From sequence record PQ657772.1: a stretch of 64,000 nucleotides of DNA, one strand, 5' to 3'. Both the position numbers and the translations under genes were made by a program. Under the pieces are notes generated by a model. The model was not told where the DNA came from. It saw nothing but the letters and a program-made list of their open reading frames with translations, and ran no database searches. How positions within the stretch are numbered: the stretch's first letter is position 1; each line of letters starts with the position of its first letter. Source of the DNA: Escherichia phage EC.P1. Below, piece after piece: positions 46,383 through 48,701 of this stretch.

Positions 46383-46938
46383 AACTCAATACCTCCATTA
46401 AGCACTCATAAACACCATCAATCGCATAAGCACAAAAACTGAAATTAATTTTGTTATTCTTGTGTAATGGACTATTGTATACTGTACTCAACATAACACT
46501 ATAAAACAAAGAACGTTCATGTGTAAATAATGATTCCTGAAAAAATGCTTCCTCTGATTTAATTTTATTATATTCAATCGATTGATCATTAGAATAAAAT
46601 GAATCTTGATTTGAATTGTACCATGTGTAATCCAAATCATTCTTTGATATAACTGGTGTTGGATTAAACTGTAAAAGACTAATAACACTACGGGCATTTG
46701 GGGTATCAGGTGTATTGAATCGTTTGTCAAAATAACTTGTGCACGCAATATGTGAATCAAAATCAGATGGTTTAAACCCCATGAATGCGTTAATGATTCT
46801 TGTATATGGTTTTTTATTATGTGCTGCTTTTTGTACATTATATAAGGCTGCAACAATACAAGCTAACTTTTGTCCCATTAGGATTGCATTAGCGTAGGTG
46901 TACTGAATTTCATTGCTGGTACTGTACTTCGAGATCAT
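46369..46938 (-). CDS. family A paralog
   Basis: motif EEAFFQESLF; nested 46488..46856 is alternative-frame. Confidence 0.6.
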   Translation of the reverse strand: MISKYSTSNEIQYTYANAILMGQKLACIVAALYNVQKAAHNKKPYTRIINAFMGFKPSDFDSHIACTSYFDKRFNTPDTPNARSVISLLQFNPTPVISKNDLDYTWYNSNQDSFYSNDQSIEYNKIKSEEAFFQESLFTHERSLFYSVMLSTVYNSPLHKNNKINFSFCAYAIDGVYECLMEVLSYEAE

Positions 46939-47260
46939 GGAACAGCCTCACTTTGCCTAACTCGTCATTGGATATTAATTCGTTAACAGCTTTCTGTATA
47001 TTCTTTAATAATAGCACATCAAATCCTTTTGTGTCAAGCACACATTGCATTTGGAAGAATTCTTCTTCTGATAATGTATTAAAATCCACAAAATTGTCTA
47101 ATATTACGTCATTATCCAAATGTGCCATGTGCCATGTATTTCTTTCGGAGCGTTTAATAAAATTCCATCCATCTGGATAATCGGGTTCTAATTCTACATA
47201 TATCCCTGATAATGTATAAAGCATTTTATACTTCATAACTATTGTACTCATTGCTTTCAC
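46910..47260 (-). CDS. family A paralog (MKYKMLYTL subtype)
   Basis: motif EEEFFQMQCV. Confidence 0.6.
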   Translation of the reverse strand: MKAMSTIVMKYKMLYTLSGIYVELEPDYPDGWNFIKRSERNTWHMAHLDNDVILDNFVDFNTLSEEEFFQMQCVLDTKGFDVLLLKNIQKAVNELISNDELGKVRLFHDLEVQYQQ

Positions 47261-47568
47261 TGTACGTCGATGTCATAATACGCTCCTACTTCATAATCTT
47301 TCTTGCTTTGGAATTCATTAACGACTTTCTGTATATTTCTTAATGTTACCATGTCATGTCCGTACATGTCAACCACCAATTGCATTTGGAAAAATTCTTC
47401 TTCAGATAATGTATTAAAATCTATAAAATAATCCGTAACAACATGTGCGTCTAAATTTGCCATGTACCATTGATTGGTATCGACCTCTTTAACCAAATTC
47501 CATGCATCTGAATCGGATTCTAATTCTACATATATTAATGTTAATGTATACAGCATTTTATACTTCAT
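47257..47568 (-). CDS. family A paralog (MKYKMLYTL subtype)
   Basis: motif EEEFFQMQLV. Confidence 0.6.
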   Translation of the reverse strand: MKYKMLYTLTLIYVELESDSDAWNLVKEVDTNQWYMANLDAHVVTDYFIDFNTLSEEEFFQMQLVVDMYGHDMVTLRNIQKVVNEFQSKKDYEVGAYYDIDVQ

Positions 47569-48064
47569 AACTATATCCTTGCATTAATAAATCATAAACG
47601 TTTGAAAGGTGCGGAATTTTGATATAAAATTTAAAACCCTTAATTAAAGGATTCGCGTACAATGAACTGAATAACTTTAGATAATGTATTTGACGAGGAC
47701 TGTATAATAACGATTTCTGAAATAATTCAGCACTACAATCTGTACTAATATCAATTAAATCAATTCGTGCTTCTACTTCATCATCTTGTTTCAAAACATA
47801 AAAGAAATAATCGTTTGTGTTGACCCACAAATACCCTTCACTATTTTCGTATATAACAGGAGATGCTTGTTCTGGATTGCCTTGGGCAAATGCTGCAAAA
47901 CAAACTTTTGCATTACTTTCATCTTTAAACATAAACGATAATTTATCATATCTATCTTCTATGCGTAAATCACCTATAAAAATGTACTTATGCATAGAAT
48001 GATTATTCTTGAGCATAAGCATTACTGTACTAATCTTGTGTGCTAACAATTCTATCTCATTCAT
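47558..48064 (-). CDS. family A paralog (MNxIELL subtype)
   Basis: motif SAELFQKSLL; C-terminus LMQGYSYEV. Confidence 0.6.
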   Translation of the reverse strand: MNEIELLAHKISTVMLMLKNNHSMHKYIFIGDLRIEDRYDKLSFMFKDESNAKVCFAAFAQGNPEQASPVIYENSEGYLWVNTNDYFFYVLKQDDEVEARIDLIDISTDCSAELFQKSLLYSPRQIHYLKLFSSLYANPLIKGFKFYIKIPHLSNVYDLLMQGYSYEV

Positions 48065-48070
48065 ATATTA

Positions 48071-48151
48071 TTACCTATTGATAGATACATCGTCATTGAC
48101 TTCTAATTCAACATAAATCATATCTTTTGTATAAAGCATTTTATACTTCAT
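48071..48151 (-). pseudogene. truncated remnant of an MKYKMLYTL-type family A gene
   Basis: Encodes MKYKMLYTKDMIYVELEVNDDVSINR then stop; same junction sequence as the starts of 47257..47568 and 46910..47260. Confidence 0.5.
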
Positions 48152-48701
48152 AACTATATCCTTGCATTAAAAGATCATAAGCAATATCAACTAATTCTAA
48201 ACGAATGAAAAATTTTAAATTATCTTTCAATGGATTCAAATGCATTGTACTAAACAACATAAGATACTTCATTTGATTTGTATTGTATATTAGGGATGTC
48301 TGAAATACTTCTGCTTCATTGTAAGGATCAATGAATTTTATACCTTCTTCACTATAATCCGTTTTGGAATTTTGATATATAAAATAATCATCACCATAAT
48401 TGTACCACAAATAACCTTCAAAACTGGAATCAAATTCTGAATTTTCATTTCGCATTAAAGGTGATACTGAAATTGGATTTGAACCAACTGTTGCACAAAC
48501 CTCAATGAAAGCATCTTCATTTCCCTTAACTTCTTCTTTGATTTTATCATTGTACTGTCCTGCAAAACCAGCTTTTACTTCCAAATATAAACTACTCCCA
48601 ACTTTATTAATTCTTAAAAGGGAACTCTGTACTGTATTCGCATTGTTCAGCACTAACGATATTGTGCAAATCTTATGTACCAATAACTCAATATCATTCA
48701 T
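48141..48701 (-). CDS. family A paralog (MNxIELL subtype)
   Basis: motif EAEVFQTSLI; C-terminus LMQGYSYEV. Confidence 0.6.
   Translation of the reverse strand: MNDIELLVHKICTISLVLNNANTVQSSLLRINKVGSSLYLEVKAGFAGQYNDKIKEEVKGNEDAFIEVCATVGSNPISVSPLMRNENSEFDSSFEGYLWYNYGDDYFIYQNSKTDYSEEGIKFIDPYNEAEVFQTSLIYNTNQMKYLMLFSTMHLNPLKDNLKFFIRLELVDIAYDLLMQGYSYEV

What the first reader, a model, noticed from the sequence alone, without database searches (positions are those of the whole stretch)
46910..48701. Recent segmental duplication in array A leaving a truncated gene remnant
Two consecutive units each consist of an MNxIELL-type gene ending in LMQGYSYEV followed by an MKYKMLYTL-type gene. In the upstream unit the second gene is cut to 26 codons (48071..48151) with the same junction sequence gcattttatacttcataactat. 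This looks like unequal recombination between paralogs and shows the array is actively remodelled.
Basis: seen in the sequence. Interest (0 to 1): 0.45.

Follow-up and report, generated by a model that had tools for sequence, protein, structure and literature searches.

The report
Old duplication scar, still-shuffling phage gene cassette
In a giant E. coli phage, two neighbouring genes of unknown function were duplicated long ago, leaving short stubs of the next gene, and one copy is still gained or lost between near-identical phages by recombination in a 36-base repeat; this is ordinary phage mosaicism, but unusually well resolved.

Summary
The window comes from an Asteriusvirus jumbo coliphage (99.8% identical to phage WPEC5). 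On the minus strand the order is 349a, a 26-codon stub of gene 350, 349b, 350b, 350a, 351. The 22-nt junction occurs three times (0.03 expected).

"Recent" is wrong. 349a and 349b are 39% identical in protein and 59% in DNA. The same stub breakpoint occurs in TH47 and slurp01, whose flanks here are only 45-85% identical to the window.

The junction looks like a tandem duplication: codon 21 of gene 350 is joined, with at most 2 nt of microhomology, to the last 17 nt of a gene 348. A second, unreported junction lies between 350b and 350a: a 16-codon stub of gene 351.

Remodelling is ongoing, but by a different route. A 36-nt identical block at the 349 stop / 350 start overlap flanks the unit [stub tail + 349b]. 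Ecwhy_1 and three other assemblies (96-99.8% identical flanks) lack exactly these 583 bp, and in Ecwhy_1 the switch point maps inside the block. PBECO4 versus slurp01 shows the same indel in another lineage. Genes here are swapped as whole cassettes.

Protein function is unknown. This is a clear case of known phage mosaicism; interest is low to moderate.

The parts
48141..48701 (-). Gene 349a ('alpha' allele, 186 aa), a member of PHROG 19795
   Evidence: ORF. phrog_19795 E=4.5e-50. 92% aa identity to ph0011 349, but only 55% to the 121Q/PBECO4/TH47 'gamma' allele and 42% to the beta allele (alignment-based values).
48071..48151 (-). 26-codon stub of a 350-type gene. The first 64 nt (48151 down to 48088) are 350 sequence. 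The last 17 nt (48087-48071, TATCTATCAATAGGTAA) are the 3' tail of a PBECO4/UE-S1-type gene 348. The duplication breakpoint is at about 48088|48087.
   Evidence: The first 51 nt are 51/51 identical to the 350 allele of phage A4. The tail matches TATCCATC(A/G)ATAGGTAA, which lies directly upstream of 349 in PBECO4, UE-S1 and slurp01. TH47 and slurp01 have the same breakpoint, but there a 1-nt insertion cuts the ORF to 14 codons. The stub is not annotated in WPEC5.
48135..48170 (.). Copy 2 of the 36-nt identical block AGCATTTTATACTTCATAACTATATCCTTGCATTAA. On the minus strand it reads ...LMQGYSYEV* overlapping the AAGGA ribosome-binding site and ATGAAGTATAA start of 350.
   Evidence: Exact-match coordinates. 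It is one boundary of the 583-bp indel.
47558..48064 (-). Gene 349b ('beta' allele, 168 aa), PHROG 19795. This is the gene inside the variable 583-bp unit.
   Evidence: phrog_19795 E=5.5e-33. 97-100% nt identity to TH47 across 47575-48070, while both flanking genes are 45-85% identical. Full length in 14 of 33 Asteriusvirus records and absent from Ecwhy_1.
47552..47587 (.). Copy 1 of the 36-nt identical block. The start-to-start distance to copy 2 is 583 bp.
   Evidence: In Ecwhy_1 every diagnostic site on the low-coordinate (350b) side of the block matches copy 1, and every one on the high-coordinate (349a) side matches copy 2.
47257..47568 (-). Gene 350b (103 aa), PHROG 33987
   Evidence: phrog_33987 E=7.4e-41. 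57% aa and 74% nt identity to 350a.
47226..47276 (-). Second duplication scar: the 16-codon ORF MTSTYSESNEYNSYEV*. It is the first 12 codons of a gene 351 allele joined 4-6 nt upstream of the 350a start. The breakpoint is at about 47241|47240.
   Evidence: 32/36 nt are identical to the 5' end of WPEC3/vB_Ec-M-J gene 351 (MISKYNESNEYN). It keeps its own TAGGAG ribosome-binding site and stops at the same TAA as a native 349. It is present in all 10 alpha-lineage genomes examined. repeat D11: 29 nt at 79% to the native 350a/351 junction.
46910..47236 (-). Gene 350a (108 aa from the MKYKM start), PHROG 33987. It is the tandem paralog of 350b, and the third copy of the 22-nt junction lies at 47221-47242.
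   Evidence: phrog_33987 E=4.8e-54. 79% aa identity to 121Q gene 350. 22-mer match.
46369..46938 (-). Gene 351 (189 aa), a third PHROG 19795 paralog. It ends the alternating series 349-350-351.
   Evidence: phrog_19795 E=3.9e-56. The 121Q annotation names the genes 351/350/349. Absent from ph0011, UE-S1 and A4.

Best explanation
The region is part of a long run of small, overlapping, co-oriented genes of unknown function in an Asteriusvirus jumbo coliphage. It carries two old tandem-duplication scars. In each, a segment made of one gene plus the first 12-21 codons of the next gene was joined head-to-tail to a copy of itself, or to the equivalent segment of a co-infecting relative, by illegitimate recombination with at most 2 nt of microhomology. 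This gave 349a-[350 stub]-349b-350b and 350b-[351 stub]-350a-351. These joins predate the split of phage lineages whose flanking genes here are only 45-85% identical. Since then the genes have been exchanged between phages as whole cassettes by ordinary homologous recombination at conserved gene ends. The first duplication also left two copies of a 36-nt sequence that cannot drift, because it holds the last codons and stop of 349, the ribosome-binding site of 350 and the first codons of 350 all at once. Homologous recombination between these two direct repeats removes, or through a circular or unequal intermediate adds, exactly 583 bp (stub tail + 349b). Both forms therefore coexist today among near-identical phages. 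Shown: the anatomy, both breakpoints, the mosaic pattern, and the indel boundaries mapped in one phage pair of each of two lineages. Inferred: the direction of each event (loss is favoured for Ecwhy-type genomes), that the stubs are non-functional leftovers, and that the block is conserved by coding and translation constraints rather than for recombination.
For: Identity of the phage and gene order. Divergence of the copies: 39% aa, 59% nt against 46% shuffled, BLASTN detects only the ends. Breakpoint 1 is 350 codon 21 joined to the 348 tail, and it is identical in the window clade, TH47 and slurp01. Breakpoint 2 is 351 codon 12 joined just upstream of 350a. Cassette mosaic: window versus TH47 is 97-100% identical in 349b and in the 348 region, but 45-75% in 349a and 55-85% in 350, with switches at gene ends. 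Gene 349 has three allele classes, and each class also occurs as the only 349 gene in some phage. Block-bounded indel: Ecwhy_1 equals copy 1 on one side and copy 2 on the other side of the 36-nt block, giving a 583-bp difference. The same single form occurs in GCA_050001325.1, GCA_024683775.1 and SRR13870846. Single and tandem forms are interleaved in trees of both flanks, at 96-99.8% identity. PBECO4 versus slurp01 shows the same block-bounded indel (578 bp) in the gamma lineage. 349b is present in 14 of 33 records. Block conservation across all alleles, with variation only at free synonymous sites (TAT/TAC, TTA/TTG).
Against: The direction of the 583-bp events cannot be read from the sequences: insertion into a single-copy genome fits the same boundaries. 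The stub tails of the window and TH47 differ (a 6-nt indel, a frameshift and several substitutions) although the adjoining 349b is about 98% identical. The history therefore needs extra exchanges, or several donors. It cannot be decided whether the two 349 copies were identical when joined (intragenomic duplication followed by long divergence) or already different alleles (unequal exchange between two phages). Ecwhy_1 and TH47 are 'UNVERIFIED' GenBank records. No experiment shows recombination at the block.
Confidence: 0.75

Rival explanations
1. One reading: a recent intragenomic segmental duplication by unequal crossing-over between paralogs in this phage's immediate ancestry.
For: Tandem architecture with a truncated gene at the join, and a 36-nt perfect repeat at the unit ends.
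Against: The copies are 39% aa and 59% nt identical. The same breakpoint is shared with lineages whose flanking genes are 45-85% identical. The stub matches the A4-type 350 allele (51/51 nt), not the phage's own 350a or 350b (41-42/51). The perfect block is equally conserved in phages that carry only one 349 and one 350 gene.
Confidence: 0.03
2. Reverse polarity. The single-copy form (Ecwhy_1 type, PBECO4 type) is ancestral in each lineage. The unit [stub tail + 349b + block] was acquired horizontally, for example as a small circle excised between two blocks in a donor and integrated into the recipient's single block. This resembles the PeSL mini-circles of T4-type phages (PMC2839356).
For: 349b is about 98% identical between lineages whose flanks are 45-85% identical, so it has moved recently. 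The unit is flanked by direct repeats, and the same unit sits in two different backgrounds. Single and tandem forms are interleaved on the flank trees.
Against: The stub tail that such a circle would carry is not conserved together with 349b between the window and TH47 (about 80% identity, with indels). Deletion between direct repeats needs only one intramolecular step. The high-identity tract starts at the 349b start rather than at the block.
Confidence: 0.3
3. The two 349 copies were never identical. The tandem pair arose by an unequal, illegitimate exchange between two co-infecting phages that already carried different 349 alleles at the same locus.
For: Alpha, beta and gamma alleles each occur as the only 349 gene in some phage: ph0011, A4, and 121Q/PBECO4. 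A4 has the beta allele with the same upstream ATAGGTAATAATATATG but no stub.
Against: An old intragenomic duplication followed by divergence and differential loss predicts the same present-day pattern, so no feature found here separates the two. This rival concerns only the origin step and is compatible with the rest of the best explanation.
Confidence: 0.4
4. The stubs are retained because they work: short translated ORFs that hand ribosomes on to the downstream copy by translational coupling, rather than inert scars.
For: Both stubs keep a ribosome-binding site and an ATG. The 350 stub stops 6 nt before the 349b ATG. The 351 stub stops at the TAA that overlaps the 350a start, exactly as a native 349 does, and 350a has lost the AAGGA site that 350b has. 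The 351 stub is intact in all 10 alpha-lineage genomes.
Against: The 350 stub is frameshifted to 14 codons in TH47 and slurp01, apparently without loss of 349b. The alpha-lineage genomes are too similar for conservation to be informative. No expression data exist.
Confidence: 0.2
5. The single-copy form is an assembly artefact: collapse of a repeat in the Ecwhy_1 record.
For: Ecwhy_1 is flagged UNVERIFIED. Seven short-read Logan contigs break exactly inside the block, so the repeat does disturb assemblies.
Against: Only 36 nt are identical, and the 583 bp between the copies are unique sequence that cannot collapse. Three further independent assemblies, two of 357-360 kb, have the same single form. 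PBECO4-type genomes show the equivalent form in many records.
Confidence: 0.02

Closest known systems
Modular shuffling in the hyperplastic regions of T4-type phages, mediated by PeSL cassettes (Arbiol et al. 2010, PMC2839356; Comeau et al. 2014, PMC4122927)
   Same: Runs of small non-essential genes of unknown function. Closely related phages differ by insertion, deletion or replacement of whole genes. The events are bounded by short conserved sequences at gene borders. Recombination between two nearby direct copies removes the intervening gene and could release a small circle.
   Different: Here the repeated element is not a promoter plus terminator stem-loop. It is a 36-nt coding overlap (349 stop, 350 ribosome-binding site and start). 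There is no promoter enrichment (42 sites against 34.9 +/- 5.1 expected) and no significant RNA structure (z -0.1 to -1.2). The host phage is a RaK2-like jumbo phage, not a T4-type phage.
Classical phage mosaicism by illegitimate recombination at gene boundaries followed by homologous exchange (Hendrix/Hatfull model; cited from my own knowledge, not checked here)
   Same: Sharp identity transitions at gene ends. Novel joints have little or no microhomology. Later spread occurs by homologous recombination in conserved flanks.
   Different: In this case the illegitimate joint lies inside genes. It leaves recognisable 12- and 21-codon stubs, so the founding events can be reconstructed to within 1-2 nt.
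Deletion between short direct repeats in lytic phages such as T4 and T7 (textbook knowledge, not checked here)
   Same: Exact loss of one repeat copy plus the intervening DNA. The repeats are tens of bases long.
   Different: Known mostly from laboratory mutants. Here both forms are seen as a natural polymorphism in two lineages.
Paralog families in RaK2-like jumbo phages (for example, 22 paralogous ORFs reported in phage CBB, PMC5259590)
   Same: Many small paralogous genes of unknown function. The structural neighbours of 349b are uncharacterised proteins of GAP32, RaK2, fHe-Yen9 and Serratia phage BF.
   Different: I found no paper describing this locus, its alleles or its stubs. In the searches run (papers read) the genes are mentioned, if at all, only as hypothetical proteins.

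Membership tests
Recent segmental (tandem) duplication | Near-identical nucleotide sequence (above about 90-95%) along the whole length of both copies | tested here: not met
   59% global nt identity against 46% for a shuffled control. BLASTN detects only 220 nt at 70% and 62 nt at 73%. 39% aa identity.
Recent segmental (tandem) duplication | Event restricted to this genome or its closest relatives | tested here: not met
   The same breakpoint occurs in TH47 and slurp01, whose adjoining genes are 45-85% identical to the window's.
Tandem duplication or unequal exchange scar (any age) | Head-to-tail homologous units, with a novel joint that truncates a gene and resumes in sequence that normally lies upstream of the unit | tested here: met
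   350 codon 21 is joined to the last 17 nt of a PBECO4-type gene 348, then 349b follows. A second scar joins 351 codon 12 to the bases just upstream of 350a.
Copy-number polymorphism by homologous recombination between direct repeats | Related genomes differ by exactly one repeat period, with the switch point inside the repeat | tested here: met
   583 bp in Ecwhy_1 versus the window, with the switch inside the 36-nt block. 578 bp in PBECO4 versus slurp01. Three further single-form assemblies lack the unit and carry one block copy; their switch points were not mapped site by site.
PeSL-type regulatory cassette (T4-type hyperplastic regions) | The repeat contains a strong sigma-70-like early promoter and a terminator stem-loop | tested here: not met
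   Promoter-like sites are not enriched, and the single terminator-like site is elsewhere, at 45556-45577. The three junction copies fold no better than shuffles, z -0.10, -0.68 and -1.23.
PeSL-type regulatory cassette (T4-type hyperplastic regions) | Short conserved sequence at gene borders that bounds insertions, deletions and replacements between close relatives | tested here: met
PHROG 19795 (349a, 349b, 351) and PHROG 33987 (350a, 350b) | Full-length significant match to the family profile | tested here: met
   E = 4.5e-50, 5.5e-33 and 3.9e-56 for PHROG 19795; 7.4e-41 and 4.8e-54 for PHROG 33987. All matches are end to end. Both families are annotated 'unknown function'.
Pseudogene remnant (the 26-codon ORF) | Homologous to only the 5' end of intact family members, and the reading frame is not conserved in relatives | tested here: met
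   Only codons 1-21 match 350. In TH47 and slurp01 a 1-nt insertion gives 14 codons.

The most novel reading that the evidence does not exclude
The alternating 349/350/351 genes belong to a superfamily of at least 26 paralogs in this window that share the motif [ST]xxEExFQxS[LT]. The superfamily could be a diversifying arsenal, for example against host defences or for exclusion of competing phages. In that reading, the invariant stop/start overlap blocks act as built-in recombination linkers. They would let single genes be excised, perhaps as small circles, exchanged between co-infecting jumbo phages and re-inserted in register with intact translational coupling. That would be a coding-sequence analogue of the PeSL system of T4-type phages.
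Probability: 0.12. Interest if true: 0.55.

Novelty: new member of a known kind. Interest (0 to 1): 0.27.

Why it matters
This is a clean natural example of how jumbo-phage accessory gene arrays grow and turn over. Two founding illegitimate joins can be placed to within 1-2 nt. Allele-by-allele cassette exchange follows. A 36-nt repeat toggles one gene in and out in two separate lineages. The case warns annotators in three ways. Short ORFs such as 48071-48151 and 47226-47276 are duplication scars. A perfectly conserved junction does not date a duplication. Short-read assemblies break at this block. It adds no new principle beyond known phage mosaicism, and the encoded proteins remain of unknown function.

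Tried and rejected
- **A structured RNA or regulatory element at the conserved junction.** RNA folds of the three copies are not better than shuffles. Promoter and terminator scans show no enrichment. Rejected.
- **More genomes from IMG/VR.** An exact search for the Ecwhy-type junction and protein-guided scans with 349a and 349b found nothing. The exact-protein look-up did supply extra genomes.
- **Other stubs in the window.** A scan of the N-terminal 14-mers of all long ORFs against all minus-strand frames found no further remnant of this kind. It also missed the 351 stub, which scores below its threshold of 10 of 14.
- **Literature.** Searches on Asteriusvirus, 121Q and PBECO4 papers found no description of this locus. 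The fEgEco12 paper reports only that 59 fEgEco12 gene products are absent from Ecwhy_1.
- **Assembly artefact as the cause of the single-copy form.** Rejected.
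Full report
**What the window is.** The 2.3 kb around the finding is 99.8% identical to Escherichia phage WPEC5. It is 99.6% identical to fEgEco12, and 33 phage records match, all Asteriusvirus jumbo phages of E. coli or Salmonella. The genes lie on the minus strand. Using the numbering of the reference phage 121Q, the order in the direction of transcription is:
- 348
- 349a (48141-48701)
- a 26-codon ORF (48071-48151)
- 349b (47558-48064)
- 350b (47257-47568)
- 350a (46910-47236)
- 351 (46369-46938)
- 352

349a, 349b and 351 all belong to PHROG 19795. 350a and 350b belong to PHROG 33987. Both families have unknown function.

**Check of the observation.** The 22-nt junction occurs exactly three times in the window (0.03 expected). 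The two 349/350 junctions share 36 identical bases (47552-47587 and 48135-48170) inside a 96-nt repeat of 80% identity. On the minus strand this block reads LMQGYSYEV-stop for 349. Overlapping it are an AAGGA ribosome-binding site and the ATGAAGTATAA start of 350.

**Is the duplication recent?** No.
- 349a and 349b are 39% identical in protein and 59% in aligned DNA, against 46% for a shuffled control.
- BLASTN of the region against itself finds only the ends of the units: 70% over 220 nt and 73% over 62 nt.
- 350a and 350b are 57% (protein) and 74% (DNA) identical.
- The full tandem arrangement is shared by WPEC5, fEgEco12, Turkey3, CMSTMSU, WPEC3 and vB_Ec-M-J. These are down to 93.7% identical to the window over this locus.
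- A stub with the identical breakpoint sits in front of 349b in TH47 and slurp01. Their neighbouring genes are only 45-85% identical to the window's.

**Anatomy of the founding joint.**
- The first 64 nt of the stub are 350 sequence. The first 51 nt are 51/51 identical to the 350 allele of phage A4, but only 41-42/51 to the window's own 350a and 350b.
- After codon 21 the sequence switches to TATCTATCAATAGGTAA. In PBECO4, UE-S1 and slurp01 the nearly identical TATCCATC(A/G)ATAGGTAA is the 3' end of gene 348, directly upstream of 349.
- The duplicated segment therefore ran from the last 17 nt of a gene 348, through 349, to codon 21 of 350. It was joined head-to-tail with at most 1-2 nt of microhomology. 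That is an illegitimate join, not a crossover between paralogs.
- In TH47 and slurp01 a 1-nt insertion shortens the stub ORF to 14 codons, so the peptide itself is not conserved.

Between 350b and 350a lies a 16-codon ORF, MTSTYSESNEYNSYEV-stop (47226-47276). Its first 36 nt are 32/36 identical to the 5' end of the gene 351 allele of WPEC3 and vB_Ec-M-J (MISKYNESNEYN). It is joined 4-6 nt upstream of the 350a start. The 350 duplication therefore has the same form: one gene plus a short 5' stub of the next gene. This scar is present in all ten alpha-lineage genomes examined.

**The locus is a cassette mosaic.**
- Gene 349 exists in three allele classes (alignment-based identities). Alpha is the window's 349a and ph0011 (92% to each other). 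Beta is the window's 349b, the TH47 and slurp01 349b, and A4 (80-95%). Gamma is 121Q, PBECO4, UE-S1 and the upstream copy in TH47 and slurp01 (88-99%). Identity between classes is 42-55%.
- Each class is the only 349 gene in some phage.
- Along the window-TH47 alignment, identity is 97-100% across 349b (47575-48070) and across the 348 region (48730-49050). It is 45-75% in 349a and 55-85% in 350, with the switches at gene ends.
- Gene content also varies. 121Q and PBECO4 have one 349 and one 350. TH47 and slurp01 have two 349 and one 350. ph0011, UE-S1 and A4 lack 351. Turkey3 and A4 carry an extra gene between 348 and 349.
- 349b is full length in 14 of 33 records.

**What is actually recent.**
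- Ecwhy_1 is about 99% identical to the window on both flanks but lacks 583 bp. In a three-way alignment, every diagnostic site on the low-coordinate (350b) side of the 36-nt block matches copy 1. Every diagnostic site on the high-coordinate (349a) side matches copy 2. The difference is exactly one repeat period, with the switch inside the block.
- The single form is not an assembly error. Three more independent assemblies (GCA_050001325.1, GCA_024683775.1 and a 31.7-kb SRR13870846 contig) have 349a followed directly by 350b, with a single block.
- In neighbour-joining trees of the upstream and downstream flanks, single and tandem genomes are interleaved at 96-99.8% identity. The state has therefore changed more than once, or is being reshuffled.
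- The same block-bounded indel (578 bp) separates PBECO4 (single) from slurp01 (tandem) in the gamma lineage.
- A SNP just after the block (ATGCT[G/T]TATACA) is distributed differently between the two copies in the window, WPEC5, Turkey3, CMSTMSU and vB_Ec-M-J. This hints at conversion between the copies.

**Why the block is conserved.** It is almost invariant in all twelve 349/350 junctions compared, including those of phages with single-copy genes. Changes occur only at free synonymous positions, TAT/TAC and TTA/TTG. It combines the end of one gene, the ribosome-binding site and the overlapping start of the next. Purifying selection therefore explains it, and its perfection says nothing about age. 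It folds no better than shuffled sequence, and promoter- or terminator-like sites are not enriched.

**Most likely mechanism.**
1. Old illegitimate tandem joins created 349-stub-349-350 and 350-stub-350-351.
2. Homologous recombination between co-infecting relatives exchanges the individual genes as cassettes.
3. Homologous recombination between the two 36-nt direct repeats deletes the unit [stub tail + 349b], or conversely adds it.

I favour loss in the Ecwhy-type genomes, because it needs only one intramolecular step and the joint has a single origin. Gain cannot be excluded: 349b has clearly moved between lineages recently. Whether the two 349 copies were identical when first joined, or were already different alleles from two phages, cannot be decided.

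**Comparison with known systems.** The behaviour matches the hyperplastic regions of T4-type phages, where recombination between short PeSL cassettes at gene borders inserts, deletes and replaces genes and can release mini-circles (PMC2839356, PMC4122927). It is not a PeSL: the repeat is a coding overlap without a promoter or stem-loop. It also fits the general model of phage mosaicism, illegitimate joins followed by homologous spread, and deletion between short direct repeats. Both of those comparisons rest on my own knowledge. Papers on Asteriusvirus phages treat these genes only as hypothetical proteins.

**Verdict.**
- Observation: confirmed.
- Interpretation: partly supported. A duplication scar and active remodelling are real. 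The duplication is not recent, and the founding join was not a crossover between paralogs.
- Novelty: a new, well-resolved example of a known kind of phage genome plasticity.
- Interest: 0.27.

Noticed in passing
window 19313-52793, minus strand: At least 26 small genes share the motif [ST]xxEE[FYLW]FQxS[LT] (for example LSEEEFFQMQ, SEEYYFQNST). This is a large phage-specific paralog superfamily with no match in Pfam, NCBIfam or the PDB. The F and Q are invariant in a 27-sequence alignment.
   Followed up: partly
window 47226-47276 (-): A 16-codon ORF between 350b and 350a is a stub of gene 351 fused just upstream of 350a, marking a second tandem-duplication joint. It keeps a strong TAGGAG ribosome-binding site and stops at the TAA overlapping the 350a start, while 350a itself lacks the AAGGA site. 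It may therefore relay translation.
   Followed up: partly
L017-L023 (Logan short-read contigs carrying 349a): Seven contigs end exactly inside the 36-nt block (...ATGAAGTATAA). This is consistent with assembly graphs breaking at this repeat in samples that hold tandem-type phages.
   Followed up: no
L008 3835-4164 (Turkey3) and L012 3317-3667 (A4): An extra gene of 109 or 116 aa with an N-terminal signal-peptide-like segment lies between 348 and 349 in these two phages and is absent from the window. In Turkey3 it has taken over the ribosome-binding site that precedes 349a in the window.
   Followed up: partly
L010 (ph0011), L012 (A4), L013 (UE-S1): These three Asteriusvirus genomes lack gene 351 altogether: 350 is followed directly by 352. 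The boundaries of this indel were not mapped.
   Followed up: no
window 47546-47551 and 48129-48134, and the same sites in L002, L005, L007, L008: The base two positions after the block (ATGCT[G/T]TATACA on the minus strand) differs between copy 1 and copy 2 in the window (T/G). It is swapped in Turkey3 (G/T) and equal in WPEC5 and vB_Ec-M-J (G/G) and in CMSTMSU (T/T). This suggests gene conversion between the two repeat copies.
   Followed up: no
L005 (CMSTMSU, MH494197.1): Genes 351, 350a, 349b and 349a are each broken into several short ORFs in this record, although the DNA is about 98% identical to the window. Sequencing indel errors are the likely cause, and the record annotates only 2 CDS in the region.
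   Followed up: no
L006/L007 gene 351 5' end versus L003 (121Q): The 5' end of gene 351 varies by an 18-nt insertion or deletion flanked by the direct repeat GTACAATGAAA (MISKYNESNEYNEIQ against MIWKYNEIQ). This is a small slippage-type length polymorphism.
   Followed up: no
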